From: a virus
Taxonomy: Duplodnaviria; Heunggongvirae; Uroviricota; Caudoviricetes
Strand: one strand, 5' to 3'
Length of the DNA: 64,000 bases
IMG/VR virus record: IMGVR_UViG_3300038443_000233
Span: 1 to 64,000 of that record
Part shown: positions 77 through 41,321 of the stretch, piece by piece
Layout of the letters: each line of letters begins with the position of its first letter
Numbering within the stretch: position 1 is the stretch's first letter
Program-made: the position numbers and the translations under genes
The notes under the pieces: generated by a model
What the model was told of the DNA's origin: nothing
Databases searched by the model: none
The model's input: only the letters and a program-made list of their open reading frames with translations

Positions 77-868
77 TTACTTCGAAACGTTGACCATGCC
101 CTTGAAATCGTACGGTACGACGATGGTGTGGACACGACCAGCGGCGATGCCTTCAGCGATCTTCATTTGGGCCTGAGCTTGCATGTAGTTCACCGCACCG
201 GCATTCGCGTTCAGTGCTGCGATACGCTTCGATTCCTGTTCGGCCTTCTGCACTTCGATTGCCGACTGCTTCAGTTCGTTCTGTGCACGGACGAGGTTGT
301 TAGCCGATTGCGTGATTGCCGAAGGCGGTACGGCGTTACGGATCAGCACTTGCGATACGATGATCGACGTATCCAGCTTTTCCTTCGCCAGTTCTTCCTT
401 CATGATGGCGACGATATCCGACTCGACCGCTTGTCGCTGGATGTTGATCTTCAGCGCCTCGTACTTCGGGATCACCTTCATCACAGCGTTCTTCGCGATG
501 GTTTGCACGTAGCTCTCCATCAGCAGCGTTTCGCCTTTCTCGTTCACGCCGTTGAACGACTTCGCCTTGTTGACGTACAAGTCGCTCACGCTCGACGGGT
601 TGATGTTGTAAACGACGGTAAGATCGAAGTCATCCATCGTTACGTTCTCGACCGTCTGCGGCCGGAGGTCTTTCACTTCAGCGTTGATTTCACGCACCGG
701 GAAGGTCAACACTTCGCCCACGAGGGTCTGGTTCACCGAGCTGGCGGGCAGTTCGGTAGTGTCGATGCTCTTGTCCCAGTGTTTGCGGAGGCCGACTTCG
801 CCGGTGTCGATACGAGTGCAGCCCGTGAATGCCAGAGCCATTGCGATCATTGCCAGTACTTTCTTCAT
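77..868 (-). CDS. SPFH/band-7 (prohibitin/stomatin-like) domain lipoprotein
   Basis: 263 aa. The N-terminus MKKVLAMIAMALAFTGC has a lipobox. The coiled-coil-rich body resembles SPFH family proteins. A conserved leader/RBS sits upstream. Confidence 0.6.
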   Translation of the reverse strand: MKKVLAMIAMALAFTGCTRIDTGEVGLRKHWDKSIDTTELPASSVNQTLVGEVLTFPVREINAEVKDLRPQTVENVTMDDFDLTVVYNINPSSVSDLYVNKAKSFNGVNEKGETLLMESYVQTIAKNAVMKVIPKYEALKINIQRQAVESDIVAIMKEELAKEKLDTSIIVSQVLIRNAVPPSAITQSANNLVRAQNELKQSAIEVQKAEQESKRIAALNANAGAVNYMQAQAQMKIAEGIAAGRVHTIVVPYDFKGMVNVSK

Positions 869-1792: not shown

Positions 1793-2010
1793 TTCGTGCT
1801 CTCCTGTACGTTTTTGACGACCTTCTTCACTGCCGTAGCGGTGTACGGCTCCTTGCTGTCGGTCAGTGCACCGCCGAGGGTGACGACATCTGCTGCCAGA
1901 GCAACAGGTGTTTCGACAACTACACCTACCGTGGCTTTCGCCAGCTTACCGAGCATTCCGAACATTTTGTTTCCTTTCGTAGTTGATTGCGACAGGTAAG
2001 ATTGTTTCAC
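1789..2010 (-). CDS. hypothetical protein
   Basis: 73-aa ORF. A minus-strand promoter TTGACA-17-TACTAT lies at ~2033-2061. Confidence 0.45.
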   Translation of the reverse strand: MKQSYLSQSTTKGNKMFGMLGKLAKATVGVVVETPVALAADVVTLGGALTDSKEPYTATAVKKVVKNVQESTK

Positions 2011-2059
2011 TAGCGTGCAACGATAGTACTGCTACTTACCCTACCTGTCAACAATTATT

Positions 2060-2209
2060 TTACAGCGTCGATTCGCCTTCTGCATCTTCCCACCCATCCG
2101 TCCAGTCATTGAACTCTGTGGTCCCTTCCTGATACGGATTCTCGTCGTGGCCGTAGCCTTCACGGTACGCACGCTTACCTTCGTAATACTCGTCATTCAA
2201 AAACATCAT
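2060..2209 (-). CDS. Rmf-like small protein (ribosome modulation factor family)
   Basis: 49-aa ORF that is not in the supplied track (too short): MMFLNDEYYEGKRAYREGYGHDENPYQEGTTEFNDWTDGWEDAEGESTL. It matches the Rmf pattern RA(H/Y)xxGY...(C/N)PYQ...W..GW.(E/D)A. Its ATG overlaps the stop of the 2206..2694 gene (ATGA), and a GGAGGA RBS is present. Confidence 0.55.
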   Translation of the reverse strand: MMFLNDEYYEGKRAYREGYGHDENPYQEGTTEFNDWTDGWEDAEGESTL

Positions 2210-2694
2210 TCCTCCTTCGTAAACTCTTCAATCAGGGCGTCAAGCGATTCAACCACTTTGATACCCGCTCGTTGACAGATGATGTCAACATTACCTTTCC
2301 TCCAGAAACCCGGAGGGCAGCAAACATACACCCGGCGTGGAGTGTAAGGCCAGCTTTTAGTCGTAGGCAGTGCTACCACATAGCCAAGCTCCATGAGCGT
2401 GATAGGTGACATGGTGTTCGGATCGAAATAGAACACTACGTTCTCCGCTCGTGCGATATAGTCCAGCTCCCAGTTCACTTGCTCTGCGAACTGCGGATTG
2501 TCAATACTCTGCACCCAGCTTGAGTCCCAGTCTTCCCTGCGAGGATTGAAGATCGTCAGGTGAAGGTGATCGACGGCACGCACAAAGCGTTCCTGCCAGT
2601 CCTCGGCCTTGCCCATCTCGATACTCCCCGCAAGAAAGACCGTCTCACCAGTTTGCCAGAGTTGCTTATGGTGCGGCGGTCTTATCTCAATCAA
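2206..2694 (-). CDS. nucleoside 2-deoxyribosyltransferase-like protein
   Basis: 162 aa. It contains VFLAGS...ELGYVVAL, which resembles the motifs of the Rossmann-like deoxyribosyltransferase/DUF4406 family. Confidence 0.45.
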   Translation of the reverse strand: MIEIRPPHHKQLWQTGETVFLAGSIEMGKAEDWQERFVRAVDHLHLTIFNPRREDWDSSWVQSIDNPQFAEQVNWELDYIARAENVVFYFDPNTMSPITLMELGYVVALPTTKSWPYTPRRVYVCCPPGFWRKGNVDIICQRAGIKVVESLDALIEEFTKEE

Positions 2695-2709: not shown

Positions 2710-5211
2710 TTAGTGGCAAGTTGCCCAATTAGTACCGATCATGTAGCCAGCCGTCAACTCCACTTTAAGCTTGTAGTACTTACCAGCGTCGGTGACAGCC
2801 TTCGTGGCAAGCTCTCCGGCTCGATTATAGGCCACGTAGAAGCATTTCTCCGTGTGGCCGATATCAGACCATACCTTATCCGTTTGCGCGTCTTTAAACG
2901 CCTTACAAGCCTTCTTAGCGGCTGCTGCGGATTCGGTCAGTTCTCCGTCAACTTCCATCGGACCGTCGAACTTGAACAGCTTGAACGTCACACTCGACTT
3001 CGTTACCTCGCACTGTGCCTCGTCGTGGTAAGCGATGAGTTGCTGTGCGAACTTTTCCTTCTCTTCCAACTTGGCTTTCCAGTCATCCACGAAGAAATCG
3101 ACTGACAAACCTTCTTCCTTCAGGTAACGGTCATGCAGCACCATTGCCCGTTTTGCGCAGATAACGCCGCACGATTGGAACGCAGTGTTAATCACGTTAC
3201 CCTTCGCCCGGATCGGAAGCTTACGTCCATCGATACCCAGCAGGAATTTCTTCTGGCCGGTCGATTCCCAGTAAGCTTGCATTGCTTCTTTCAACTGCTT
3301 CAGCGGGAACGCTTGCTCCCAGAACGTGTTGAAGATGATGGTTGCCTCTTCGATGCTACAGCCCACGGTCTTAGCGATACGTGGAATCTGTGCATTGTAC
3401 GAGCATCCGTACTTCACGTTCTTTGCAGTCGAACGAGGGAACTTACGCCCCAGAATGTCCGTGATCTTAGCAGCAAGTACAGAGTGGCAGTCGTTCGGCT
3501 TCTCAGCCGTCAGCGACACACCGTACTCAGGTCCGCCCGGATAACGATAAGTATAGTGTGCTTCCACCTTAGCTTCAAGCGAATCGAAGTCATACCCCAT
3601 CTGGTAGAAGTATTCGTCTGTTCCAAACAACTCCCGCATCTCGTAGCCGTACATCGAAGACACACGCGGCACGTTACACACCAGCCTGTGCTTGAATCGA
3701 CTGGTAGCAGCACCGCACGTATCAGCAGGCGTAGGGATTCGTCCATCAACGTCCAGACGGTCAACCGACATCCAACCCTTCTGAATGTCTTCGTCATCGT
3801 CCGGATCGATACCGCCACCCAAAATACTATTACGACGGTGCTTATACGTCAGGTAGTGGGAAATCTCCTTGGCATATCCAAACTTCTCCGACAGCTTCAG
3901 CAGCTCCGGGTCAATCTCCTTCTCCATACCAATCGTCAGCGTAGGATTCGTATAAACCTTCAGCGGACGCTTCATATGGTCGTGGGCCAACAACTTCTTC
4001 AGTACGAAGTCCTTGCTCACACGAGGCGAGTACTCCAACTCTTCCAACCTGTCCGCTTTGAACGGGCTATCAAAAGTCTGGTCAACCCACTTCGTTACCG
4101 CTTCCACGAACTTTTCCTTCGTGATCTTCTTCTTCTTGCTGTCAACCGTCAGGTCGCGTTCCTTGTACTGCGTAGGGGACCAGCCCAGATCAACGAGCCA
4201 TTGCTTGATGTGCAACGTATCGTCCAGCTTGGCAGGCTCCGTAAGGAACAATGGTTCGTTCGGGATAGGCAACTTGTGCTTCTGTCCGAACACTTCCAGC
4301 CACCAATCACCCGATTCCTCGTACAACGATCCGCCATGCTTTTTGGCGAAGTTGAACATATGGCTGACGGGTTCTCCGTTGTTCTTGAACTGCTTCTTCA
4401 CCGGAGTGACATCCGCAAGCTTACCCTTCGTCAACGGTTTCGGAGGGATGAGCGGTTCCACGGTGGATCGTAGCTCTTCCATCTTCGCGTCGAGGAAGCG
4501 AACGTTTTCAATCGCTTTGTCACGATTGAATTTGAAGCCTCGATGCTCCTGCCGGGTGATGATTTCAGCGACAGCCTTTTCCAGCTCGTACGCGTCGTTC
4601 CAGTCCCAGTCTCCCCATTCCCTCCGAAGCCAGTTGTACACCCGCTTGTTGACGTGACAGTCTCGCATCATGTAGACGCCCATTTCCGGGTGCCACTGAC
4701 GGAACTCTGCCCCTCGCGGTGCATCAGCGGTAATCAGGCCCAGTTCTACAGCCTTCGCCCGCCAGTTGATCTTTTCCAGTCCGAGAATACTACCGAAGTA
4801 CTCGATACTATGCTGCGGACGGTCTGGGTTGAGCGTCTTCGACATAACGAGCGTGTCGGTAATGATGATGTCTTTCGTCTTCCCTTTGTACGTGATGCGA
4901 TCCGGGATGTCCAGCAGACGGCAACCGATGGAGTAGTTCATACCATCGTGCAGTTTCATCAGCAGATGGTCGTAGCTGATCGTATTGTGACCGATCATCT
5001 CGTCAACCTCTTCCATGATGAATTCAGCGTGCTCGCCCCGCCTCACTTGCTCCGGGCCGAACAGCCATTCGTCTTCAGTATCCCGTGCTACAAACCCGGC
5101 ACAATGCATGAACTCCGGGTCGTGCAGTCGGTAAGGGGAAGCCGTGTAATCAATGGACTCGGAATTCAGCAGGTTCTTCGCTTCCGTGTCCCAGATTGCG
5201 GCAATGCCCAT
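2710..5211 (-). CDS. DNA polymerase, family A, with N-terminal 3'-5' exonuclease
   Basis: 833 aa. The N-terminal AIWDTEA motif looks like Exo I. GRIPTPADTCGAATSRFKHR matches the PolA O-helix region (GRLSSS.PNLQNIP-like). 'KNVKYGCSYNA' resembles motif B. Confidence 0.85.
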   Translation of the reverse strand: MGIAAIWDTEAKNLLNSESIDYTASPYRLHDPEFMHCAGFVARDTEDEWLFGPEQVRRGEHAEFIMEEVDEMIGHNTISYDHLLMKLHDGMNYSIGCRLLDIPDRITYKGKTKDIIITDTLVMSKTLNPDRPQHSIEYFGSILGLEKINWRAKAVELGLITADAPRGAEFRQWHPEMGVYMMRDCHVNKRVYNWLRREWGDWDWNDAYELEKAVAEIITRQEHRGFKFNRDKAIENVRFLDAKMEELRSTVEPLIPPKPLTKGKLADVTPVKKQFKNNGEPVSHMFNFAKKHGGSLYEESGDWWLEVFGQKHKLPIPNEPLFLTEPAKLDDTLHIKQWLVDLGWSPTQYKERDLTVDSKKKKITKEKFVEAVTKWVDQTFDSPFKADRLEELEYSPRVSKDFVLKKLLAHDHMKRPLKVYTNPTLTIGMEKEIDPELLKLSEKFGYAKEISHYLTYKHRRNSILGGGIDPDDDEDIQKGWMSVDRLDVDGRIPTPADTCGAATSRFKHRLVCNVPRVSSMYGYEMRELFGTDEYFYQMGYDFDSLEAKVEAHYTYRYPGGPEYGVSLTAEKPNDCHSVLAAKITDILGRKFPRSTAKNVKYGCSYNAQIPRIAKTVGCSIEEATIIFNTFWEQAFPLKQLKEAMQAYWESTGQKKFLLGIDGRKLPIRAKGNVINTAFQSCGVICAKRAMVLHDRYLKEEGLSVDFFVDDWKAKLEEKEKFAQQLIAYHDEAQCEVTKSSVTFKLFKFDGPMEVDGELTESAAAAKKACKAFKDAQTDKVWSDIGHTEKCFYVAYNRAGELATKAVTDAGKYYKLKVELTAGYMIGTNWATCH

Positions 5212-7358: not shown

Positions 7359-7613
7359 TTACCCTTTCTTATGTAGTTTGCCATGCAGGAAGGTAGACGT
7401 AATGCTACCAAGCCCGCCTCCGAGGCCGATTGCCAAGACAACCCACCCCATTCCGTTGTGGACGACGTTGAGCAAGATGATAGCCTCGCATACAGCCATC
7501 ACCATGCTCGTCGGCAGAATCCAAAGATACTTCTTGTGCATCACGTTCAATTGTTGGAACGAACGCAATCCAATGTTCAAGAAGCTCGTAATGAATGCTA
7601 GGAAGTAAATCAT
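7359..7613 (-). CDS. small membrane protein (2-3 TM helices)
   Basis: 84-aa hydrophobic ORF. A further 36-aa hydrophobic micro-ORF (MLLALIIVFTLLLVLADD...) lies at ~7243-7353 on the minus strand. Confidence 0.4.
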   Translation of the reverse strand: MIYFLAFITSFLNIGLRSFQQLNVMHKKYLWILPTSMVMAVCEAIILLNVVHNGMGWVVLAIGLGGGLGSITSTFLHGKLHKKG

Positions 7614-8956
7614 TTCTGATCCAGCGTGTAATGCTTCGGGTTCTTCCCAGCATGCAGCTCGTTGAGGGCTTTCACCTTGGCCTTCAGCATGTCCAGTTCC
7701 TTCAGGTAGCCAGCCATACGGAGGCGGTCATCGATCAGCATGCCAGCAGCACGAGCTTCCAGCAAGATAGCGATGTTCGCCAACACACCGCCGAGGTTAG
7801 GAACACCGTCAGCCGGGTCGTCTTCTTGTCCGCATGCCCACGCCAGCAAGTGACGCATTGCGGCAGCGATGTAGATACTCGCCTCTACGGGCGTATTCGC
7901 GAAGTTGGCCTTACCGTACTTCAGTGAACCATTGTACAGACCGAGTGCGCCGTACGCAGTCGCCAGTGGGCTCCACATATTCAACGGCACCGACGACACG
8001 CCGTACTGACGCTTCGGGTTTGTGTCTGGAGCCACATTCGTATCAGGTTGCACATTACCAGTCCAATCGATACCAAATGGCTTCGTACTTTCCGTGTTGA
8101 TCGTTCCAGTTGTAATGACGCCCGGACCAGTGCCCAGAGCTGACAGCGAACCTACTTCAAGGGCAATCGATTTGCCCATACTTTGTGCCAGATCAACAAC
8201 CATCTGTTCCTGCGTTACGGTCTTCATCTGTTCGCTTTCCGGTTGGATGCGGTACGCTACGATATCGCCCCCACTACCGTCTTGTTTCCAGTCCCAGTAA
8301 TACGTATCTGCTGCGGTTGCCAGAAGCTCATCACCATCGCTAAAACGTATCTCCACCAATGTTCCCGCAACGACCGGCATTTTTCCACCTTTCCACTCGA
8401 TCCACTCGCTTACTGCGGGCTTCTGTTTGTGCTTATTCGGCGTCAGCACTTTGTAGCTTTCGATGGTAAAGCCGCCGAAATCGTACCAACAGAAATAACC
8501 GGCTCGTCCAGTTTCCGTGTTGCCGTTACGAAAACGAACAGACACCAGAACATCCTTTCGGACAGGGATAGTGTTGTGAGTCTTCTTGGTAGCCGTAGCA
8601 TCCCATTTACGCTGCGCACGACGCTTCTTGGAAGCCTTGCTTTCCTCGCGTTTGATAGCTTTCACTTCTTCCGCAGCAGCTTTCAGCTCGTCCAGCGTCA
8701 CTTCACGTTGCGGGCCTTTCACAACAGCGGAACTTGGAACTTTCGGAGATGTGCCCGATGCGTGCCAAATAGTGCCTTCGTCGTCCACGCGGATGTATGC
8801 CGCCGGGGAGTAATCATGAACTTGACGAGGATTGCCGAAGCCCCACCGGAAGCCCATAGCGAAGTATGCCTTCTCGGCTTCACCTGTAGAGCCTCCGTGC
8901 AGTTTTACGAATGTATCTTTGAACTTCGACGTGATTTGATTGGTTGCTTGCGTCAT
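7610..8956 (-). CDS. hypothetical protein (448 aa), replication-module protein of unknown function
   Basis: Long ORF with an RBS and conserved leader. A minus-strand promoter TTGACA-17-TACACT lies at ~8987-9015. No motif could be assigned confidently. Confidence 0.6.
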   Translation of the reverse strand: MTQATNQITSKFKDTFVKLHGGSTGEAEKAYFAMGFRWGFGNPRQVHDYSPAAYIRVDDEGTIWHASGTSPKVPSSAVVKGPQREVTLDELKAAAEEVKAIKREESKASKKRRAQRKWDATATKKTHNTIPVRKDVLVSVRFRNGNTETGRAGYFCWYDFGGFTIESYKVLTPNKHKQKPAVSEWIEWKGGKMPVVAGTLVEIRFSDGDELLATAADTYYWDWKQDGSGGDIVAYRIQPESEQMKTVTQEQMVVDLAQSMGKSIALEVGSLSALGTGPGVITTGTINTESTKPFGIDWTGNVQPDTNVAPDTNPKRQYGVSSVPLNMWSPLATAYGALGLYNGSLKYGKANFANTPVEASIYIAAAMRHLLAWACGQEDDPADGVPNLGGVLANIAILLEARAAGMLIDDRLRMAGYLKELDMLKAKVKALNELHAGKNPKHYTLDQK

Positions 8957-9571: not shown

Positions 9572-11331
9572 CAGAATTCCTTAGTACCGTTCTTAGCTAG
9601 GTAGTCGTCCTTATCAAACATGGTGTGACTAGCGTTATCGTAAAAATACTCTCCTGCAACGCCCGTCTTGCCGGTCCAGCGAATCTTACTAGCCTTCATG
9701 CGGGTAGTATTTCTTTCAATCTCGTCCTCTGCCTCTTTGTTACGCGTAAAGAGAAGATTGCATGCCCCGGATTTAAAAATGGAAGACGAACCCTGCATAT
9801 CTTCCTCAAACAGATCAGCCCCGGTGGAGTTGGCCTTCTGTCCGCCACCGCTCTTACGAACGTGGTTGACGTTGATGAACGTTACGTCGTGCGACTTCAA
9901 CATGCCCTTCATCCATTTCAGGAAGACAGCTTGCTCTTCGTTCGTCATACCGTCCAGAATGTCCTGCAACGGGTCCAGAATGATGAGTTGACAACCGCAA
10001 GCGATAATCAGCTCTTCGATCTTCGCCTTCATCGACTCAAGGCCGCCATCGCGGTCCTCGATAAGATAGAAGCGATCCGTACCATCCGGCATGAAGTACA
10101 GCTCTTTTTCCTTCTCCCGCACGTAGTCCGAGTCGAGGTATGCCAGTTTGTCCGTTTCGTCTTCGATCAGGTCGATCTTCCGTCCGACGTGTCGGCTCAG
10201 AATCTTCGTACCGTACTGCCCGCTGTCGCTTTCGAGCGTGACGATACCTACTTTGTACGGACTGTTGAAAATCCAGTAGTACGTCATCTCGTCCACGATA
10301 GTAGACTTACCAGTACCAGACGCAGAGCCGAGGTTGATAATGGTCTTGAGCGGGAACCCGCCAGCCATCATCTTTTGCAGCTTGTGCATGAACGGAGGTA
10401 GCGGAATCTTCTTCATCCCTGCTGCTTCACGAATCTTGTCACCCAGTCCACTCGACCCCACGATACCATCCGGCGTGTACGGCTTGGCCTTGAAGTAGTT
10501 GTTGACGAACTCCTTCTCCAGCCCGCTTGTCAGCATAAGATTTGGGTCTTTGCGTGACCACTTGGCGACATACACCTTACCCTTCGGCAGAACCTTCGCG
10601 ATCTTATGCGTAGCTGTCTCCCCGGCAGCGTCATTGTCCATGCCGATGATGATCCTGTCAAACTTGTTGAACCATTCATACTGTGCTTGGATTTGCTTCA
10701 CGCAACCTGTTTCGCCCACGGTAGGCGATACGACCGGGACAGCATCGTAGCCTTTCGACTCTTGGTACTCCGCTAGCATTTGGTAGGCCGACAGTTGATC
10801 TACCTCACCACCAACGATGACGACTACCCTGCCACCATTGGTGAACCTGAATTGCCCCACGAGGTCACAGTCCTTGCCAACAACTCCAACGGGACCGCTG
10901 AAGTCTTTTGGCATTCTTCTGACCTTGTAGCCAACGAGCTTGCCATTAATTGTCGTCGGTACATACTGGGCATCTGGCTCTCCCGTCTCTTCATCATATT
11001 CATATCTGATGCCGAAATACTTGTTTGTTTCATCTTTGATACCCCTCCACCCTTTTGATTTAGTTCCTGTGTAGCCTTTTATGGTTGCGTTCTCTTCATC
11101 TGTAATCGGGTCACGAGTGCTCACTTGTTCATCCTCTTCCTCTTCATAAATCCCTCGTTTAGCCTTCTCTTCGTCGCTCAGTAAAGTCCACCCGCAAGCG
11201 TGGCAGTAGGCTCCATTACCTTCTGAATAAACTTGTAGATTATCCCGTGCAGAATCGCGTCCCTCTCTTGCGCATCTCGGGCACTGCTCGTTATGCGGGT
11301 AACTTAAATCAATGTTCCATTTGTTGCTCAT
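9571..11331 (-). CDS. bifunctional DNA primase/helicase (T7 gp4-like: zinc-ribbon + TOPRIM + DnaB-like helicase)
   Basis: The zinc ribbon is CPRC...CHACGW. A TOPRIM-like segment (VVIVGGEVDQLSAYQ) is followed by the C-terminal Walker A GSASGTGKST. The ORF runs to 11412, but the ATG with a GGAGAGG RBS at ~11331 is the more plausible start. Confidence 0.8.
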   Translation of the reverse strand: MSNKWNIDLSYPHNEQCPRCAREGRDSARDNLQVYSEGNGAYCHACGWTLLSDEEKAKRGIYEEEEDEQVSTRDPITDEENATIKGYTGTKSKGWRGIKDETNKYFGIRYEYDEETGEPDAQYVPTTINGKLVGYKVRRMPKDFSGPVGVVGKDCDLVGQFRFTNGGRVVVIVGGEVDQLSAYQMLAEYQESKGYDAVPVVSPTVGETGCVKQIQAQYEWFNKFDRIIIGMDNDAAGETATHKIAKVLPKGKVYVAKWSRKDPNLMLTSGLEKEFVNNYFKAKPYTPDGIVGSSGLGDKIREAAGMKKIPLPPFMHKLQKMMAGGFPLKTIINLGSASGTGKSTIVDEMTYYWIFNSPYKVGIVTLESDSGQYGTKILSRHVGRKIDLIEDETDKLAYLDSDYVREKEKELYFMPDGTDRFYLIEDRDGGLESMKAKIEELIIACGCQLIILDPLQDILDGMTNEEQAVFLKWMKGMLKSHDVTFINVNHVRKSGGGQKANSTGADLFEEDMQGSSSIFKSGACNLLFTRNKEAEDEIERNTTRMKASKIRWTGKTGVAGEYFYDNASHTMFDKDDYLAKNGTKEF

Positions 11332-11359
11332 TTCCCGTGCCTCTCCATGTATCCCGCAT

Positions 11360-11737
11360 TCACTCCTTCCTTCCGTAGTAGCAATACACTCCCATCGGGT
11401 CTTTTTGCTCAAGCGTCGAGCGTATCCGGCAACGCATAAACTCCAGCGCTTCGGGCTTCACGTACTCGTCAATCCAGAGATGTGAAATCTGGTATCCGGC
11501 ATATTCACGGACATCCCTGTCGGCATGTCGCAACATAACCTTACCACCGTCCTTATGGGTAATCGAACGGCTACGAGCATCGTACGTGAAGCCCGACATC
11601 TTACTCGTTGCGAGGAATTTCCACAAGGCATTCTCGCTTGTAGCCTTACCACACATGATGATCGAGCGAGTGTTAGGACAAGCCTTGGCTTGCACCAAGG
11701 CCCGTTGCCCTATCGTTTTAAGCTGACGGGCCAACAT
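11360..11737 (-). CDS. hypothetical protein
   Basis: 125-aa ORF. It does not overlap the primase gene if the 11331 start is used. Confidence 0.4.
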   Translation of the reverse strand: MLARQLKTIGQRALVQAKACPNTRSIIMCGKATSENALWKFLATSKMSGFTYDARSRSITHKDGGKVMLRHADRDVREYAGYQISHLWIDEYVKPEALEFMRCRIRSTLEQKDPMGVYCYYGRKE

Positions 11738-12755
11738 AGTTCTCGCCCGGAATGAACTTCCGATACTGCCGCCAGCCCTTCAGGTTGCCCGACCACAACT
11801 TACCTTGACGATCCACGTGCGTGATGCCTTCTTCCCATGTGTACGGAACCCACGGATGGTTCTGTTCGTAGTTCGTCGGACGAACACTGCTTGGGTAGTA
11901 GCCCCATTCACGGATCGGCGTAGCACAGTGTTCGAACGCAGAAGCATGCTTTTTCTCGTCACCCACCAGCCGGTCGTACACTTCCAGCGACTTCTCCAGC
12001 CCGTAACCTTCGTTACGATAGCTTACAGCAGCGCAACGTGCACATGATACCTTGATTGCCTCTTCCAGCGTCAGCAATCGGCCCTCTTCCCCGATTTCCT
12101 CGTTCATCTGGTAGCCGATGATCGTGCCGTCTTCCTTTACAGCCTTGCCATAGATGTAAGGCAAGTGCCATTCACCAGCCTGCAACAACTCCGGCGTAGA
12201 AGCCTTACGTGCCTCGTTCATCACACGGGCCAGTTCCGCCAGAGTCGGATCAGCAGCTTCATGGTCGCGGAGCCAGAAGAAGTTCTCCAGCTCAGTACCA
12301 CTCAGCACCGTCTTCATCATCTGGAACGGCTCAAGTAGGCGATTGTACACTTGCTTGTGGTAGCCAGCCTTATTGAACTGATCTGCGAAGTAGATGGCGT
12401 GTTCCTTCGCTTCGTCCCAAGCTTCTTCAGGCGTCCACAGCGGGGAACCAGAGTTACCATCGTACTCCACAGGCCAGCCCAGAACGCCAGCGTTGAAGTC
12501 TTCACCTTTGTCCTGCATACCACTCTGGTTTGCACCGAAACGGAACGGACGGCCCAGCAGTTGCTTGAGCATCTTCAGGAACGGTACAGCACGTGAGCTG
12601 AAGCTGTTCTTCGACAGCATCCGGTGCGTGTTCAGCTCCGCCAACACCAGACGCGGGTATTCGATTTCGAACGTCAGGAACCGGACGCCCGCCTTGCTGA
12701 TCGAGTCAGCGAGGATGGTAGCCTTGATTCCGTACTTACCTTCGATTGTTACCAT
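11718..12755 (-). CDS. thyX: flavin-dependent thymidylate synthase ThyX
   Basis: It contains the ThyX signature RHR.....S (here THRMLSKNSFSSRA). The likely start is MVTIEGK. Confidence 0.75.
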   Translation of the reverse strand: MVTIEGKYGIKATILADSISKAGVRFLTFEIEYPRLVLAELNTHRMLSKNSFSSRAVPFLKMLKQLLGRPFRFGANQSGMQDKGEDFNAGVLGWPVEYDGNSGSPLWTPEEAWDEAKEHAIYFADQFNKAGYHKQVYNRLLEPFQMMKTVLSGTELENFFWLRDHEAADPTLAELARVMNEARKASTPELLQAGEWHLPYIYGKAVKEDGTIIGYQMNEEIGEEGRLLTLEEAIKVSCARCAAVSYRNEGYGLEKSLEVYDRLVGDEKKHASAFEHCATPIREWGYYPSSVRPTNYEQNHPWVPYTWEEGITHVDRQGKLWSGNLKGWRQYRKFIPGENYVGPSA

Positions 12756-13072
12756 CACTCCCCCAGAATGTCGATGATACGCTTGAGCTGGTCCGAACTC
12801 AGCAGCTTGCCGACACGGATAGTAGTTTCCACGTCGGTAACGTCGATGATGAAGTTCTTCAGTGGTGCTTCCTCTTCCACTACTTCGAAGTCGCCATCGG
12901 TCCACCCGCCGTGCGCTGTGCTAGACTTGCTCTTGGACACAGCCGTGAACTTCGTTGGATCACTGTACATGGGTTTGAACGTGTTAGGGACTGAGTAGAC
13001 GATATCCCCGACTACGAAGTCGTCGCCAAGGTCGTTAATCACGCGAAGTTTTGTACCGATTGGATGGGTCAT
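12755..13072 (-). CDS. hypothetical protein
   Basis: The start MTHPIGTKL is preceded by an RBS. A minus-strand promoter TTGCAA-17-TAGAAT lies at ~13218-13246. Confidence 0.45.
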   Translation of the reverse strand: MTHPIGTKLRVINDLGDDFVVGDIVYSVPNTFKPMYSDPTKFTAVSKSKSSTAHGGWTDGDFEVVEEEAPLKNFIIDVTDVETTIRVGKLLSSDQLKRIIDILGE

Positions 13073-13530
13073 TTGTGTTTCTCCTTTGGTTTTCGGGGCA
13101 TGTAAAAAGCATGCTTTCCGATGGTTAGAATTCGTTTCATCTTGTGTGCCCACGTTGGGTGCACTTTGTTGCTATGAAAGTACGTAGCGTTACTTGCGAC
13201 AGGTGCTATTCTACGTACTTTCGACAAGCGTTGCAACATTTCTTCGGTCGCTGTCAACCTCATGCCACGATGGTAGCCTGAGAACTGGTAAGGTTCCTTA
13301 ACTACCTCGCACGCCGTAAGGCGTCGAATTTCCATCCGGTGCTTGACGACATCATACACGGCTCGTTGGCCCCGTAGCGGCTCACCACGGGCTTCGTCAT
13401 CGATAACCCATGCCATGCAGATGTCGTCTCGTGTGATGGCTGGGGCCATCGGGATGTGCGGCGGGGTTGCCAGCGTGTTCGTAACCAGTGATGTACATAG
13501 CACTACCACACTAAGCAACCGTCTTATCAT
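13069..13530 (-). CDS. SleB/CwlJ-like cell-wall hydrolase with N-terminal signal peptide (candidate endolysin)
   Basis: MIRRLLSVVVLCTSLVTNTLA reads as a signal peptide. The motif EARGEPLRGQRAVYDVV is typical of the Hydrolase_2 (SleB) family. Confidence 0.55.
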   Translation of the reverse strand: MIRRLLSVVVLCTSLVTNTLATPPHIPMAPAITRDDICMAWVIDDEARGEPLRGQRAVYDVVKHRMEIRRLTACEVVKEPYQFSGYHRGMRLTATEEMLQRLSKVRRIAPVASNATYFHSNKVHPTWAHKMKRILTIGKHAFYMPRKPKEKHK

Positions 13531-38400: not shown

Positions 38401-38475
38401 AGCTGACTTACCCGAGAGGAAAGGGACCATCCTTGTAAGATGGAAGCCGTGGGTTCGAATCCTACAGTCAGCACC
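38401..38475 (+). tRNA. tRNA-Thr (anticodon TGT)
   Basis: Cloverleaf: acceptor GCTGACT/AGTCAGC, anticodon loop CTTGTAA, T-arm GTGGGTTCGAATCCTAC, CCA encoded. Confidence 0.7.
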
Positions 38476-38564
38476 ACGAGCCTGCGTTGCCGTCTACGGT
38501 CTTAATTGATTGAGAAGCGGCATGTAAGTCAAATCCCATTGCACACGGGGAGATAGTGTGCCAT

Positions 38565-38639
38565 TCTGGGTGTAAGTCATTGGTAGACAGCCTGTCTTGG
38601 ATACAGGTCGCAGTTGGTTCGATTCCAACCTCCCAGACC
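38565..38639 (+). tRNA. tRNA-Pro (anticodon TGG)
   Basis: Anticodon stem CCTGT/ACAGG, loop CTTGGAT, T-arm GTTGGTTCGATTCCAAC, CCA encoded. There is one acceptor mismatch. Confidence 0.65.
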
Positions 38640-38663
38640 AGAATTCAGTGCTAGTGTACAAAA

Positions 38664-38692
38664 CTTGACAAATTGTCGAGCGTATAGTAAGA
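38664..38692 (+). promoter_or_regulatory. promoter TTGACA-17-TAAGAT (internal to tRNA region)
   Basis: Same architecture as the promoter at 38096. Confidence 0.55.
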
Positions 38693-38878
38693 TAGCAGTA
38701 CGTAACGAATTTGACGTAACAACTACTTGTACCAGCTACGACCTGTAAGCGTACGTACGCGAATACCGGGCAACGTAGGAATGCTGGAACGTCATACTTA
38801 GCAATCGCAGAAGCGGCGTGAGTTAATCTACTCTCACTGAGGCGGAGACGGCCAAGAAACAGAACTGTCCAAGAACAA

Positions 38879-38952
38879 TTGCGGTGTGGTGTAACGGTTA
38901 GCACTATGGGCTCATAACCCGAAAGACCAGTTCGAATCTGGCGTCCGCAACC
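38879..38952 (+). tRNA. tRNA-Met/Ile2-type (anticodon CAT)
   Basis: D-arm GTGT-AACGGTTA-GCAC, anticodon loop CTCATAA, T-loop TTCGAAT. Two acceptor positions are mismatched, so the boundaries are approximate. Confidence 0.6.
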
Positions 38953-39023
38953 ATCCAATCCCGGTAACGTGTCCGGGTTTCTGCCGGTGAGCCGTGCAGG
39001 GAGAGCAAAACACGATTGACAAT

Positions 39024-39110
39024 TGTGGTGTGAGCGGAATTTGGTATCGCAGCGGACTGTTAATCCGTCACCGAAAGGTAACTGCTGGTTCGAGTCCAGC
39101 CTCCACAGCC
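39024..39110 (+). tRNA. atypical class II (long variable arm) tRNA with anticodon GTT (Asn) - assignment uncertain
   Basis: T-arm GCTGG-TTCGAGT-CCAGC is perfect. Anticodon stem GCGGA/TCCGT, loop CTGTTAA. The 15-nt variable arm folds as ACC-GAAA-GGT. The acceptor has a T-T mismatch. Confidence 0.45.
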
Positions 39111-39160
39111 AAGTTGAGAGTTAGCTGATAGCTCATGTCCAAAAATCAGCACGAACATAA

Positions 39161-39235
39161 TGGCTCTATCGTATAGTGGTTATTACGCCGGATTGTCGAT
39201 CCGAGCACGGGAGTTCAATTCTCCCTAGAGTCGCC
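39161..39235 (+). tRNA. tRNA-Asp (anticodon GTC)
   Basis: Acceptor GGCTCTA/TAGAGTC, anticodon loop TTGTCGA, T-loop TTCAATT, CCA encoded. Confidence 0.7.
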
Positions 39236-39251
39236 AGAATAGGACTAGACG

Positions 39252-39649
39252 TGAACACAACAAACATCGGAGACATCACTGAGCAAGGCTTTGTTCTACG
39301 GTGTTTGGAAAAAGAGATACCGATACTTCGTCCCGTAGGTAACAATCTACCGTACGACTTCGTGATTGAATATGAAGGCGCTCTCCGCAAGGTGCAAGTT
39401 AAGACGGGCCGGAAGGCCGCTTACGAAGGTTCGTACATATTCAACACACGTTCAACGTCGAAGAATTTTAATGAGGTAGTGCAGAAAACTTACGAAGGTA
39501 AGATCGACTACTTCGCAGTACAGTTCAGGGACCACTCCCGCGAATTCTATCTGATTCCGGTAGGGGACACAGGGACCAATGCTACCACTCTGTACCTTGG
39601 CGATAATCCTCGTCCGGGGCAGAATGTAGGCTCCAAGTACAAGTTTTAA
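39252..39649 (+). CDS. putative nuclease-fold protein (PD-(D/E)XK-like; free-standing/homing endonuclease candidate) embedded in tRNA array
   Basis: Track ORF 39176..39649 overlaps tRNA-Asp. The plausible start is GTG at ~39252 after AGGA. PYDFVIEYEG...RKVQVK resembles a PD-(D/E)XK core. The assignment is tentative. Confidence 0.35.
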
Positions 39650-39655
39650 GAATAT

Positions 39656-39728
39656 GCGGCCTACCTACTGGGATAGGGCTTTGCCTTCCAAGCAAATGAA
39701 AACGGTTCGAATCCGTTAGGCCGCTCCA
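39656..39728 (+). tRNA. tRNA-Gly (anticodon TCC)
   Basis: Acceptor GCGGCCT/AGGCCGC is perfect. Anticodon stem TTTGC/GCAAA, loop CTTCCAA. T-arm AACGG-TTCGAAT-CCGTT. Confidence 0.75.
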
Positions 39729-39830
39729 AGTTCCCCGACAAGGAACAGCAGCTCGTAACAGAGCTTCGCTACGTTAGTTTCGTAAAACTCAGGTTGGTAC
39801 GTACCTGTCAGTAATCGTACCACGAACATT

Positions 39831-39907
39831 GGGCAAGTGACGGAATTGGTTTACGTGCTACTCTTAGAAAGTAGATTTTGTGGGTTCGAGTCCCACCTTG
39901 CCTACCA
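39831..39907 (+). tRNA. class I tRNA with anticodon TAG (would read CUA/Leu) - atypical
   Basis: Acceptor GGGCAAG/CTTGCCT, anticodon stem CTACT/AGTAG, loop CTTAGAA. Short 5-nt variable arm. T-arm GTGGG-TTCGAGT-CCCAC. Confidence 0.55.
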
Positions 39908-39912
39908 GTCAG

Positions 39913-39950
39913 GGATGTCGTCGCAGGTTCGATTCCTGCCGCTTAAAACC
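39913..39950 (+). other. orphan tRNA 3'-half-like element (perfect T-arm GCAGG-TTCGATT-CCTGC without matching 5' half)
   Basis: It follows the previous tRNA immediately. An orphan canonical D-arm-like 5' half (TAGCTCAGTCGGTAGAGCG) lies downstream at ~39957-40000. Confidence 0.35.
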
Positions 39951-39999
39951 TTAAGTGGTCTAGCGTAGCTCAGTCGGTAGAGCGGTCCCACATTACAAC

Positions 40000-40082
40000 G
40001 TGCGAGTGGCTTGGGTAAATCGGTACAGCCAGTAGGCTCAAACCCTACGCTTTTGTCGGTTCGAATCCGGCCTTGCATACCA
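40000..40082 (+). tRNA. tRNA-like, anticodon CAA (Leu?) with irregular D-region
   Basis: Anticodon arm GTAGG-CTCAAAC-CCTAC is perfect. T-arm GTCGG-TTCGAAT-CCGGC. Acceptor GTGCGAG/CTTGCAT pairs with two G-U wobbles. The D-arm is unusually long. Confidence 0.4.
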
Positions 40083-40093
40083 AGCAGTACAAT

Positions 40094-40167
40094 GGTGACG
40101 ATAGTGTAATGGGAGCATTGCTGTCTGTGAAACAGCAGGAATGGGATCGAAACCCAGCGTCACACCA
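40094..40167 (+). tRNA. tRNA-His (anticodon GTG)
   Basis: Anticodon stem GCTGT/ACAGC, loop CTGTGAA. An extra 5' G is consistent with the His G-1 identity element. Confidence 0.65.
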
Positions 40168-40309
40168 AATTTATTTACTCATACGTGGGTTCCTAGTACG
40201 GGGGTTCGAGTCCCAATGGTAACGGAAGTGGAATCCAGCTACCGCCGACTAGCTACCGGCGAAATACGGCGCCTAGCGAGCGAACGGCGTATGCGTAAGT
40301 GAATTTAAT

Positions 40310-40385
40310 GCGGAAGTAGCTGATGAGGTCTTAGCGCTGGCCTGAAAACCCAGAGATGAAGGTTCGATACCTTCATTCCGCACCA
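40310..40385 (+). tRNA. tRNA-Phe (anticodon GAA)
   Basis: T-arm GAAGG-TTCGATA-CCTTC, acceptor GCGGAAG/ATTCCGC, anticodon loop (C)CTGAAAA. Confidence 0.6.
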
Positions 40386-40395
40386 GACGAACAAC

Positions 40396-40487
40396 GCGTG
40401 TAAGCCGAATATTGGTTAAGTCGGCGCTGACTGTAAATCAGTAGTGGGCTCGACCCGGTGGAGGTTCAATTCCTTCTGCACGCACCA
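40396..40487 (+). tRNA. tRNA-Tyr (anticodon GTA), class II
   Basis: Anticodon stem GCTGA/TCAGT, loop CTGTAAA. The variable arm is 17 nt. Acceptor GCGTGTA/TGCACGC. Confidence 0.7.
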
Positions 40488-40493
40488 TACAGT

Positions 40494-40570
40494 GTTCCAT
40501 TCGACTTCTGGTTGAGGTCAGCGTCCTTTCAAGTCGCGCAGGCTCGGTTCAAATCCGGCATGGAACTCCA
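40494..40570 (+). tRNA. tRNA-Glu (anticodon TTC)
   Basis: Acceptor GTTCCAT/ATGGAAC is perfect. D-stem GACT/GGTC. Anticodon loop CTTTCAA. Confidence 0.7.
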
Positions 40571-40577
40571 AAACAAT

Positions 40578-40652
40578 GCTTGGTTAATTCAGCGGTAGAA
40601 AATCATCCTTACAAGGTGATAGTCGTTGGTTCGAATCCAACACCAAGTACCA
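40578..40652 (+). tRNA. tRNA-Val (anticodon TAC)
   Basis: T-arm GTTGG-TTCGAAT-CCAAC. Anticodon stem TCATC/GGTGA, loop CTTACAA. Confidence 0.7.
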
Positions 40653-40658
40653 AGATAT

Positions 40659-40733
40659 GGGCTGGAGCGTAGGTTACGCTGGCCTCCCTTGCACGGAGCG
40701 CTGATCGGAGTTCGATTCTCCACTGGTCCACCA
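40659..40733 (+). tRNA. tRNA-Ala (anticodon TGC)
   Basis: The G3:U70 wobble in the acceptor is the Ala identity element. D-stem AGCG/CGCT. Anticodon loop CTTGCAC. Confidence 0.8.
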
Positions 40734-40800
40734 GAGTAGAAGCGTGGAACAACACAAAGCTACGGCTAATAACGGCTGCTGCGTGCCACGCTCAATGAAC

Positions 40801-40874
40801 CGCCGCATGGCAGAGTGACTATGTACTTGCCTGCAAAGCTTGGGAGATTGGTTAAAATCCAATTGCGGCGTCCA
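40801..40874 (+). tRNA. tRNA (isotype unresolved; possible Cys GCA)
   Basis: Acceptor CGCCGCA/TGCGGCG is perfect and T-arm ATTGG-TTAAAAT-CCAAT is perfect. The D and anticodon arms are poorly paired in my manual fold. Confidence 0.5.
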
Positions 40875-40881
40875 AGACAAT

Positions 40882-40954
40882 ACGTGATCCGAGGGATATC
40901 GGCTCTGGCGCTACGAACGCTGGCTGGGTGGTTCGACTCCATCATTACGTGCCA
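40882..40954 (+). tRNA. tRNA-Arg (anticodon ACG)
   Basis: Anticodon stem TGGCG/CGCTG, loop CTACGAA. T-arm GGTGG-TTCGACT-CCATC. Acceptor ACGTGAT/ATTACGT. Confidence 0.7.
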
Positions 40955-40956
40955 TA

Positions 40957-41030
40957 TAATCTGCTACTTACCTTCACCCTGAATTGACAGGGCATTCGCG
41001 GAAGGGGAGCCACGTAGGTAGCAGATTATA
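40957..41030 (+). other. long imperfect hairpin (TATAATCTGCTACTTACC ... GGTAGGTAGCAGATTATA) with structured 42-nt loop
   Basis: A ~17-bp inverted repeat lying between tRNA-Arg and tRNA-Ser. Confidence 0.4.
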
Positions 41031-41031
41031 T

Positions 41032-41121
41032 GGAAGATTAACCAGCCGGGGCGCTGGCGGGCTTTGCTAAAGCTTTGGTGCGTGTCGAGCGCATGGCAGT
41101 CGGGATGTCAATCTTCCGCCA
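41032..41121 (+). tRNA. tRNA-Ser (anticodon GCT), class II, 90 nt
   Basis: Acceptor GGAAGAT(T)/(A)ATCTTCC + G + CCA. Anticodon stem GGGCT/AGCTT, loop TTGCTAA. The long variable arm GTGCG-TGTCGAG-CGCAT has a non-canonical T-loop. The terminal sequence resembles selC, but the anticodon is not TCA. Confidence 0.55.
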
Positions 41122-41229
41122 GAGTAAATTTTCGCTGAACGTGGTAAGCGTTTCCGTCACCAAGCGCTTGAGGGCGGTAGCTAAGTAAAAACAACTCTTC
41201 GCCATTATCGGACTAAATGGCACGAACAT

Positions 41230-41321
41230 GGAGACTCAATCCGATTGGCGACGGAACCGGCCTTGAAAGCCGTGCGAGCTAGAAATAGCCTTGGGAGTTC
41301 GACTCTACCCAGTCTCCGCCA
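41230..41321 (+). tRNA. tRNA-Ser (anticodon TGA), class II, 92 nt
   Basis: Acceptor GGAGACT/AGTCTCC is perfect. D-stem TCC/GGA with a long loop. Anticodon loop CTTGAAA. Variable arm GCTA-GAAA-TAGC. T-loop TTCGACT. Confidence 0.7.

What the first reader, a model, noticed from the sequence alone, without database searches (positions are those of the whole stretch)
2060..2209. Unannotated 49-aa Rmf-like (ribosome modulation factor) ORF translationally coupled to the upstream gene
The ORF is below the 60-aa cut-off of the supplied track. It has an ATGA overlap with the preceding gene, a GGAGGA RBS, and a sequence matching the Rmf signature (RAY.EGY...NPYQ...WTDGWEDA). A phage Rmf homologue would dimerise and hibernate host ribosomes, a plausible host-takeover or translation-control function.
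Basis: partly seen in the sequence, partly recalled or inferred. Interest (0 to 1): 0.6.

Follow-up and report, generated by a model that had tools for sequence, protein, structure and literature searches.

The report
Acidic Rmf-fold phage mini-protein
A real 48-residue phage gene has the same tiny two-helix fold as the bacterial ribosome-silencing factor Rmf, but its charge is reversed and the RNA-gripping residues are gone, so it almost certainly does not hibernate ribosomes and more likely docks onto DNA replication or recombination proteins.

The parts
2060..2206 (-). Coding sequence of the 48-aa acidic Rmf/CrpP-fold protein (ATG 2206-2204; stop TAA 2062-2060): MFLNDEYYEGKRAYREGYGHDENPYQEGTTEFNDWTDGWEDAEGESTL
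   Evidence: ORF, purifying selection, conserved Met-Phe start; Rmf-fold homology; model pLDDT 88.9, helices 5-16 and 30-47.
2207..2209 (-). Probably not the main start.
   Evidence: sequence; homologues begin at the second ATG, and the first ATG is missing in L001 and L017-L019.
2211..2217 (-). Shine-Dalgarno AAGGAGG, lying inside the last codons of the upstream gene; 4 nt upstream of ATG 2206
   Evidence: An SD (AAGGAG/AGGAG) precedes the ORF in all homologous loci.
2206..2694 (-). Upstream cistron: nucleoside 2-deoxyribosyltransferase-like protein (162 aa; stop TGA 2208-2206 overlaps the small ORF). An optional insert in this phage clade.
   Evidence: PF15891, E=1e-31; phrog_30579, 8.6e-52. 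Absent in L013 and L017, where the small ORF follows PolA directly.
2710..5211 (-). DNA polymerase A (833 aa), the conserved upstream anchor of the small ORF in the clade
   Evidence: PF00476 in relatives; at most 50% aa identity to Aeromonas/Pseudomonas phage polymerases.
5503..7221 (-). UvrD-type helicase, part of the same minus-strand replication/nucleotide-metabolism gene string (continues with a dATP/dGTP diphosphohydrolase-domain protein 7613-8956, primase-helicase 9574-11412, ThyX-like 11721-12905)
2023..2051 (-). Sigma-70-like promoter TTGACA-17-TACTAT starting 9 nt after the ORF's stop. It marks the 3' end of the ORF's operon and the start of the next one.
   Evidence: 10/12 match; conserved in 10 of 11 clade loci.
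1991..2049 (-). Conserved 10-bp inverted repeat (GACAGGTAGG 2049-2040 / CTTACCTGTC 2000-1991) bracketing that promoter
   Evidence: 94% of cells paired vs 32-49% when slid; one pair changed on both sides in 2 loci; RNA fold -25.5 kcal/mol, z = -4.3.

Best explanation
The ORF is a genuine, translated 48-aa phage gene and the last cistron of the replication/nucleotide-metabolism operon (UvrD helicase - DNA polymerase A - optional NDT-like enzyme - this gene). It encodes a two-helix hairpin of the Rmf/CrpP fold. It keeps the structural skeleton shared with Rmf (G10, A13, G17, N23-P24-Y25, W35, G38-W39, A42), but its surface is charge-inverted, so it cannot use Rmf's mechanism of inserting a basic helix and N-terminal arm into 16S rRNA. 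It belongs to a large, mostly acidic, mobile-element-borne branch of the fold. The most likely mode of action (inferred, not shown) is that of a small acidic protein-binding module: an adaptor, or an electrostatic nucleic-acid mimic, that docks onto a basic nucleic-acid-binding surface of a DNA replication or recombination protein of the phage or host. This would resemble the way acidic C-terminal tails of SSB-type proteins recruit or regulate partners. Shown: real gene, fold, charge, loss of rRNA contacts, operon position, domain fusions. Inferred: the partner and the effect. Confidence that it is NOT a canonical Rmf is about 0.9. Confidence in the DNA-transaction docking-module mechanism is about 0.4, and that is the figure given below.
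For: - Real gene: 16 synonymous vs 4 non-synonymous codon changes against L003; third-position excess over 11 loci.
- Charge: pI 4.05, net -11.4 vs Rmf +6.6; 94% of 88 short relatives are net negative, median -7.
- Acidic residues are position-specific: D/E in at least 50% of members at positions 9, 21, 22, 31, 34, 37, 41, 45.
- Conserved position after PolA in all clade loci, with or without the NDT-like gene, and duplicated in L016.
- Fusions to DNA-transaction proteins: RecT C-terminus in L050/L058/L073, with the RMF module scoring 33-35.5 bits, above Pfam's cut-off, and carrying charge -11.5 to -12.6; FtsK-gamma in P0024, in an Erf/SMC/methylase region; dATP/dGTP pyrophosphohydrolase in P0033, downstream of UvrD-PolA in an unrelated phage.
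- An independent paper notes RMF-like folds in RecT C-terminal extensions and proposes they are host-coupling or partner surfaces (PMC13490951).
Against: - No partner has been identified and no binding was tested.
- The aggregate Pfam profile of 146 ORFs flanking 30 diverse stand-alone members shows no dominant neighbour family; structural genes occur as often as DNA enzymes. So outside this clade, adjacency does not support a DNA-metabolism link.
- In many phages the gene simply sits in arrays of small unknown early genes.
- Fusion partners indicate what the module can be attached to, not what the free protein does.
- The three RecT fusions carry nearly identical modules and may represent one evolutionary event.
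- No DNA-mimic or other characterised protein of similar structure was found besides Rmf.
Confidence: 0.4

Rival explanations
1. Canonical Rmf function: the phage protein binds the 30S subunit at the Rmf site near the anti-Shine-Dalgarno sequence and drives 70S dimerisation and hibernation of host ribosomes.
For: Homologous fold and shared core motif. JGI and UniProt pipelines name relatives 'ribosome modulation factor'. The nearest catalogued phages infect Aeromonas and Pseudomonas, gammaproteobacteria, the class in which rmf is found.
Against: - Net charge -11 vs +6.6.
- Rmf's rRNA contacts Arg3, Lys5 and Arg8 have no counterpart; Arg11 becomes Asp and Arg15 becomes Glu (Glu in 70 of 89 family members); the S1 contact Arg37 becomes Phe; Arg45 becomes Glu.
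- Scores 13.4 bits against the NCBIfam Rmf equivalog (cut-off 40), and is below Pfam's gathering score.
- Close structural relatives occur in phages of Burkholderia, Caulobacter, Rhizobium, Agrobacterium and Delftia, whereas rmf is described as mainly gammaproteobacterial (PMC8778775).
- The gene sits in a replication operon, not with translation-related genes such as the tRNA cluster.
Confidence: 0.04
2. Ribosome-related but non-canonical: an acidic decoy that counteracts hibernation, for example by sequestering the basic host Rmf or binding basic ribosomal proteins around the Rmf pocket (S2/S7/S9/S21/S1). This would keep ribosomes active in starved hosts.
For: Same fold with complementary charge to Rmf. 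The phage invests in translation (14 tRNA genes). Probable gammaproteobacterial host lineage.
Against: No evidence that Rmf-fold proteins pair with one another; Rmf acts as a monomer on the 30S in the structure described in 10.1101/382572. The acidic family is common in phages and plasmids of bacteria outside the group that carries rmf. Fusions are to RecT, FtsK-gamma and a dNTP hydrolase, none to translation proteins.
Confidence: 0.1
3. Anti-defence or anti-nuclease DNA mimic: a free acidic mini-protein that blocks a host DNA-binding enzyme (restriction enzyme, RecBCD-type nuclease, or another defence protein). This would be analogous to Ocr, ArdA or T7 Gp5.9, and would protect replicating phage DNA.
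For: Extreme, position-specific acidity. Wide spread on phages and plasmids. Sits in arrays of small early genes. One P. aeruginosa plasmid copy lies about 4 kb from acrF1. From general knowledge, the position at the end of a replication module recalls T7 gene 5.9 after the polymerase gene.
Against: No sequence or structural similarity to any known mimic. No PADLOC context. At 48 residues and with no evidence of oligomerisation, it offers a short surface compared with known mimics. Fusion to enzymes such as RecT suggests a docking role in cis rather than an inhibitor.
Confidence: 0.2
4. CrpP-like small-molecule (fluoroquinolone) phosphotransferase.
For: Weak NCBIfam match to the CrpP-related family (13.7 bits, E=0.043). 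Plasmid homologues are named 'Rmf/CrpP family protein'.
Against: Far below the cut-off of 35. The enzymatic activity of CrpP itself has been refuted (Zubyk and Wright 2021, as summarised in PMC9495688). A 48-aa two-helix hairpin has no plausible active site.
Confidence: 0.01
5. Chance ORF or non-functional remnant.
For: Short ORFs are abundant in the window.
Against: Strong purifying selection, a conserved SD and start, a conserved position in at least 11 loci, and 257 database representatives at E<=1e-3.
Confidence: 0.01

Closest known systems
Ribosome modulation factor Rmf (E. coli b0953; Pfam PF04957; structures 2JRM, 4V8G, 6H4N)
   Different: - Charge inverted (-11 vs +6.6).
- No basic N-terminal extension.
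- The rRNA-contact arginines are replaced by Asp/Glu.
- One-residue insertion before helix 2 (conserved G-[TS]).
- Phage gene in a replication operon rather than a stationary-phase chromosomal gene.
- Fails the Rmf equivalog model (13.4 vs 40 bits).
Mobile-element 'Rmf/CrpP family proteins' (CrpP of Pseudomonas ICEs/plasmids; NCBIfam NF041856 CrpP-related; phage 'ribosome modulation factor domain proteins' such as Agrobacterium phage OLIVR4 gp45, Milano, BcepSaruman gp330)
   Same: Same fold and motif. Carried by phages and plasmids. Small and usually acidic: pPA1045-2 copy pI 4.3; BcepSaruman gp330 charge -14, 48% identical to the window protein, BFVD TM 0.92. Function unknown for all of them.
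   Different: The window protein is below the CrpP-related model cut-off (13.7 vs 35 bits). Its own clade (14 sequences, at least 54% identical apart from the L016 second copy at 41%) is restricted to viral contigs of about 90 kb and always follows PolA. CrpP's claimed ciprofloxacin kinase activity has been refuted (PMC9495688).
C-terminal Rmf-like extensions of phage RecT annealing proteins (noted in ETfinder, NAR 2026, PMC13490951)
   Same: The same acidic module (EYDEGATAFRQGKGASDCPYEDD..RTDWLAGWNDA, charge about -12) with Pfam RMF scores above threshold. Association with DNA transactions.
   Different: There the module is covalently attached to RecT. Here it is a free protein encoded next to the polymerase, and no RecT was identified beside it.
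Acidic docking tails and DNA mimics of phage DNA metabolism (SSB C-terminal tail, T7 gp2.5/gp4 acidic tails, T7 Gp5.9, Ocr) - functional analogy only, from general knowledge
   Same: Small, strongly acidic elements encoded in replication/recombination modules that bind basic surfaces of DNA enzymes.
   Different: No sequence or structural relationship. The analogy was not tested.

Membership tests
Rmf (ribosome modulation factor, functional equivalog) | Scores at or above the curated cut-off of the NCBIfam equivalog model NF011162 (40 bits) | tested here: not met
   13.4 bits, E=0.052.
Rmf (ribosome modulation factor, functional equivalog) | Scores at or above Pfam PF04957 gathering score (27.9 bits) | tested here: not met
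   25.0-25.1 bits, E=1.9e-5. Marginal: many relatives and all the fused modules tested pass.
Rmf (ribosome modulation factor, functional equivalog) | Two-helix Rmf fold | tested here: met
Rmf (ribosome modulation factor, functional equivalog) | Small basic protein with conserved Arg3, Lys5, Arg8, Arg11, Arg15 contacting the 16S rRNA backbone (10.1101/382572; PMC8778775) | tested here: not met
   pI 4.05, net charge -11. Arg3/Lys5/Arg8 have no counterpart; Arg11 becomes Asp and Arg15 becomes Glu.
Rmf (ribosome modulation factor, functional equivalog) | N-terminal extension that intertwines with ribosomal protein S7 | tested here: not met
   The protein starts about 7 residues later than Rmf relative to helix 1; there is no extension.
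Rmf (ribosome modulation factor, functional equivalog) | Binds 30S/70S and, with HPF, produces 90S/100S dimers | not testable with these tools
   Needs sucrose-gradient or cryo-EM experiments.
Rmf (ribosome modulation factor, functional equivalog) | Chromosomal gene mainly of gammaproteobacteria, induced in stationary phase | tested here: not met
   Phage gene in a replication operon. The clade is absent from 185,579 representative bacterial and archaeal genomes.
Rmf/CrpP-fold superfamily, mobile-element branch | Core motif G-x2-A-x3-G ... [NC]-P-Y ... W-x2-G-[WFY]-x-[DE]-A in a module of about 45 residues | tested here: met
   All core positions are present. G10, W35 and G38 are invariant and A13 and P24 are at least 90% conserved in 89 sequences.
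Rmf/CrpP-fold superfamily, mobile-element branch | Encoded on phages, plasmids or ICEs | tested here: met
   The window is a phage genome segment. Relatives occur on IMG/VR contigs, 29 phage records, 169 plasmid records and 141 BFVD models.
Rmf/CrpP-fold superfamily, mobile-element branch | Scores at or above the NCBIfam CrpP-related family cut-off (NF041856, 35 bits) | tested here: not met
   13.7 bits. So it is not a CrpP-subfamily member, only a member of the wider fold.
DNA-mimic anti-restriction / anti-nuclease proteins (Ocr, ArdA, Gp5.9 type) | Strongly acidic surface | tested here: met
   14 Asp/Glu in 48 residues, conserved at specific positions.
DNA-mimic anti-restriction / anti-nuclease proteins (Ocr, ArdA, Gp5.9 type) | Sequence or structural similarity to a known mimic | tested here: not met
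   PDB sequence and fold searches return only Rmf as a meaningful hit.
DNA-mimic anti-restriction / anti-nuclease proteins (Ocr, ArdA, Gp5.9 type) | Binds and inhibits a DNA-binding enzyme | not testable with these tools
   Needs biochemical or genetic assays.

The most novel reading that the evidence does not exclude
The acidic Rmf-fold module is a widespread, so far unrecognised docking or decoy element of mobile-element DNA metabolism. As a free protein or as a tail on RecT, FtsK-gamma-type or nucleotide-hydrolase proteins, it binds one conserved basic surface, for example on SSB, a polymerase or helicase, or a host nuclease. The ribosome factor Rmf would then be a basic, rRNA-binding offshoot of this older mobile-element fold (or the reverse). 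If so, hundreds of phage and plasmid genes now auto-named 'ribosome modulation factor' are mis-named.
Probability: 0.3. Interest if true: 0.6.

Novelty: new member of a known kind. Interest (0 to 1): 0.33.

Why it matters
Automatic pipelines already label phage and plasmid proteins of this fold 'ribosome modulation factor', which invites the conclusion that phages hibernate host ribosomes. This analysis shows that, for this gene and most of its relatives, the label transfers a fold but not a function: the RNA-binding chemistry is inverted. That guards against a wrong host-takeover story. It also points experiments towards DNA replication and recombination partners, where the same module is found fused to RecT. 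RecT C-terminal regions matter for recombineering tool design, so the module's partner could be of practical interest. The gene itself is otherwise an ordinary small accessory phage gene of unknown function.

Tried and rejected
- Megablast of the region against 50,697 phage records found no match. The phage is novel, and its best PolA match is 50% aa identity.
- The nearest catalogued phages (phiA047, vB_PseuGesM_254) have no annotated equivalent ORF after the polymerase.
- A narrow 4-sequence profile against the PDB gave only noise; the 89-sequence profile was needed.
- PADLOC gave no hits.
- PHROGs gave only a weak hit to an unknown-function family, phrog_10492.
With the clade alignment it found 6 viral loci and no bacterial genome.
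- A strict DNA motif scan gave only 9 loci; a looser one gave 44.
- The aggregate Pfam profile of 146 flanking ORFs was meant to reveal a common partner and did not.
- P0005, a 3,670-aa Aeromonas protein with 29 profile matches, is named 'Calx-beta domain-containing' and was set aside as a probable compositional or repeat artefact.
- Literature searches found no experimental study of phage Rmf-like proteins. The 'hibernation factor' mentions in phage papers concern HPF or Balon homologues.
- There is no second copy of the module in the window.
- A mimic of the SSB C-terminal tail was considered and rejected, because the C-terminal residues are not conserved in the clade.

Full report
**1. What is in the sequence**

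The finding's coordinates hold an ORF on the minus strand, 2209..2060. It reads MMFLNDEYYEGKRAYREGYGHDENPYQEGTTEFNDWTDGWEDAEGESTL. The upstream minus-strand gene (2694..2206, 162 aa) is a nucleoside 2-deoxyribosyltransferase-like protein (PF15891, E=1e-31).

There is, however, a second ATG at 2206-2204. The GGAGG core is only 1 nt from the first ATG and 4 nt from the second. Every homologue in 10 related loci begins at the equivalent ATG-TTT (Met-Phe). In L001 and L017-L019 there is no upstream in-frame ATG at all. The product is therefore most likely 48 aa, occupying 2206..2060.

Overlap with the upstream gene is seen only in the window and in L003. Elsewhere the ORF has its own Shine-Dalgarno after a short gap. 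Translational coupling is thus a local accident of gene packing rather than a conserved property.

**2. Is it a real gene?**

A 49-codon ORF by itself is no evidence: there are 56 ORFs of at least 30 aa in the first 6 kb. The case rests on conservation.

- Against L003 there are 16 synonymous and 4 non-synonymous codon differences, and 18 of 22 substitutions fall at third positions.
- Over all pairs of 11 loci, differences by codon position are 429/476/1248.
- The gene keeps its place in the genome in every relative.
- An exhaustive profile search finds 257 cluster representatives at E<=1e-3.

It is a real protein-coding gene.

**3. Is it Rmf-like?**

The fold is.

- Pfam RMF (PF04957) is the only Pfam hit. 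It covers profile positions 9-49 of 53 at E=1.9e-5 and 25 bits, just below the 27.9-bit gathering score.
- 82 of 89 short family members hit PF04957 at E<=0.01.
- A profile of those 89 sequences searched against all PDB sequences returns only Rmf as significant: 2JRM at 6e-8, and E. coli Rmf in 4V8G/6H4N at about 2e-6.
- An AlphaFold model built on that alignment is confident (pLDDT 88.9, helices 5-16 and 30-47).

**4. Does it work like Rmf?**

The evidence says no.

- **Charge.** E. coli Rmf, read from NC_000913, has pI 10.9 and net charge +6.6. The window protein has pI 4.05 and net charge -11.4. Rmf is described as a small basic protein (PMC8778775).
- **rRNA contacts.** The 100S cryo-EM study states that conserved Arg3, Lys5, Arg8, Arg11 and Arg15 hydrogen-bond the 16S rRNA backbone. 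It also states that the N-terminal extension intertwines with S7 and that Arg37 contacts S1 (10.1101/382572). Aligned to the family profile, the window protein has no N-terminal extension, so there is no counterpart of Arg3, Lys5 or Arg8. It has Asp at the Arg11 position and Glu at the Arg15 position (Glu in 70 of 89 family members), Phe at Arg37 and Glu at Arg45.
- **Acidity is position-specific.** Asp or Glu occupies positions 9, 21, 22, 31, 34, 37, 41 and 45 in at least 50% of members. The residues shared with Rmf are glycines, alanines, Pro-Tyr and tryptophans, that is, the packing core.
- **Curated thresholds.** The protein scores 13.4 bits against NCBI's Rmf equivalog model (cut-off 40) and 13.7 against the CrpP-related model (cut-off 35).
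- **Host range of relatives.** Structural and sequence relatives occur in phages of Burkholderia, Caulobacter, Rhizobium, Agrobacterium, Delftia, Gluconobacter and Xanthomonas. The rmf gene, by contrast, is mainly found in some gammaproteobacteria.

**5. The family**

Of 88 short representatives (80 aa or less), 94% are net negative, with a median charge of -7. Plasmid copies named 'Rmf/CrpP family protein' are acidic too; the pPA1045-2 copy has pI 4.3. Phage genome papers and records already list 'ribosome modulation factor domain' proteins, for example Milano (PMC6588377) and OLIVR4 gp45. UniProt auto-names several phage models 'Ribosome modulation factor'. I found no experimental study of any of them. 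CrpP, the best-known mobile member, was claimed to be a ciprofloxacin kinase, and that claim has been refuted (PMC9495688).

**6. Context in this phage**

The window comes from a novel phage. There is no megablast hit, and its PolA is at most 50% identical to polymerases of Aeromonas phiA047/PAc and Pseudomonas KPP10-like phages.

The ORF's own clade has 14 sequences, at least 54% identical to the window protein apart from the second L016 copy at 41%. It is found only on viral or metagenomic contigs of about 89-92 kb, and in none of 185,579 representative bacterial and archaeal genomes.

The minus-strand gene string reads, in order:

1. RNA ligase
2. HNH endonuclease
3. cell-wall hydrolase
4. 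ThyX-like protein
5. primase-helicase
6. dATP/dGTP diphosphohydrolase-domain protein
7. UvrD helicase
8. PolA
9. NDT-like protein
10. this ORF

In the relatives the ORF always follows PolA. It does so either directly (L013, L017) or after the NDT-like gene, which is therefore an optional insert. L016 has two tandem acidic copies.

Nine nucleotides after the stop lies a sigma-70-like promoter, TTGACA-17-TACTAT (2051-2023). It is conserved in 10 of 11 loci. So the ORF is the last cistron of the replication operon.

**7. Clues to function from fusions**

The same module is found fused to DNA-transaction proteins.

- **RecT.** Three viral contigs encode RecT (PF03837, E from 3.5e-36 to 5.7e-13) with a C-terminal Rmf-like module. 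That module scores 33-35.5 bits, above Pfam's threshold, and is as acidic as the window protein, -11.5 to -12.6. A 2026 paper independently noted RMF-like folds in RecT C-terminal extensions and interpreted them as partner or host-coupling surfaces (PMC13490951).
- **FtsK-gamma.** P0024 combines an FtsK-gamma DNA-binding domain with three modules. It lies in an Erf/SMC-like/DNA-methylase early region.
- **dNTP pyrophosphohydrolase.** P0033 fuses a dATP/dGTP pyrophosphohydrolase domain to three modules, downstream of UvrD and PolA in an unrelated phage.

No fusion to a translation-related domain was seen.

Against over-reading this, the pooled Pfam profile of 146 ORFs flanking 30 diverse stand-alone members shows no dominant neighbour. 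Many copies simply sit in arrays of small unknown genes.

**8. Best explanation and rivals**

I conclude, with about 0.9 confidence, that this is a genuine acidic Rmf/CrpP-fold mini-protein that does not act as Rmf.

With about 0.4 confidence, I infer that it is a protein-binding module acting in DNA replication or recombination. It would dock, as an adaptor or electrostatic mimic, on a basic nucleic-acid-binding surface of a phage or host protein.

| Rival | Confidence |
|---|---|
| Free DNA-mimic inhibitor of a host nuclease or defence enzyme | about 0.2 |
| Non-canonical ribosome or anti-hibernation role | about 0.1 |
| Canonical Rmf function | about 0.04 |
| CrpP-like enzyme, or a spurious ORF | about 0.01 each |

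**9. Novelty and interest**

Rmf-fold proteins on phages and plasmids are already catalogued and named, so this is a new member of a known kind. The useful results are negative and corrective. The name 'ribosome modulation factor' should not be read as a function for this acidic branch, and the RecT, FtsK-gamma and dNTP-hydrolase fusions point elsewhere. Interest is modest (0.33). It would rise if a conserved partner in DNA metabolism were found.

Noticed in passing
window 1991-2051 (minus strand); same element in L001, L003, L013, L014, L016-L019, L021: A sigma-70-like promoter (TTGACA-17-TACTAT) lies directly after the ORF. It is bracketed by a conserved 10-bp inverted repeat: GACAGGTAGG, overlapping the -35, and CTTACCTGTC, just after the -10. 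94% of cells are paired against 32-49% in slid controls, and one pair changes on both sides (GC to AU) in L019 and L021. As RNA it folds at -25.5 kcal/mol (z = -4.3). It could be an operator, or a hairpin at the 3' end of the read-through replication-operon transcript.
   Followed up: partly
window 2001-2022 (minus strand): Only the window carries a 22-nt insertion (CGTTGCACGCTAGTGAAACAAT) between the -10 hexamer and the 3' arm of that inverted repeat. All other loci have the arm immediately after TACTAT.
   Followed up: no
window 13190-13260 (minus strand): A related half-motif, ACCTGTCGCAA, recurs after TTGACAGCGACC...TAGAAT. This suggests the promoter/repeat element is a reused phage regulatory signal.
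   Followed up: no
window 2206-2694 (minus strand): The NDT-like gene (PF15891) between PolA and the small ORF is an optional insert. It is absent in L013 and L017, where the small ORF follows the PolA stop directly.
   Followed up: partly
L016 4853-4999 and 5001-5150: Tandem duplication of the acidic Rmf-like gene in one clade member. The two copies are diverged: the first copy is only 41% identical to the window protein.
   Followed up: partly
L050 444-1397(-), L058 6295-7278(-), L073 1987-3174(-): RecT proteins with divergent cores (Pfam E from 3.5e-36 to 5.7e-13) carry nearly identical C-terminal acidic Rmf-like modules. This suggests module shuffling between recombinases.
   Followed up: partly
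window 38402-41537: A cluster of 14 tRNA genes on the plus strand: Thr, Pro, Met, Asn, Asp, Gly, Leu, His, Phe, Glu, Val, Cys, Arg, Ile.
   Followed up: no
window 7613-8956 (minus strand): A 448-aa protein whose dATP/dGTP diphosphohydrolase N-terminal domain (PF18909) occupies only residues 313-411. The first 300 or so residues have no Pfam match.
   Followed up: no
window 80-868 (minus strand): An SPFH/Band-7 family protein (263 aa) is conserved a few genes downstream of the small ORF in the clade (L001, L013, L014). This is an unusual phage gene.
   Followed up: no
L023 (P. aeruginosa plasmid pPA1045-2) 4965-5153 and 9067-9303: A plasmid 'Rmf/CrpP family protein' (62 aa, pI 4.3) lies in a run of small unknown genes about 4 kb from the anti-CRISPR gene acrF1.
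   Followed up: no
P0005 (Aeromonas veronii BBU03528.1, 3670 aa): A giant 'Calx-beta domain-containing' protein gave 29 matched stretches to the narrow clade profile (E=2.3e-16). This is probably an acidic-repeat artefact, but it was not examined.
   Followed up: no
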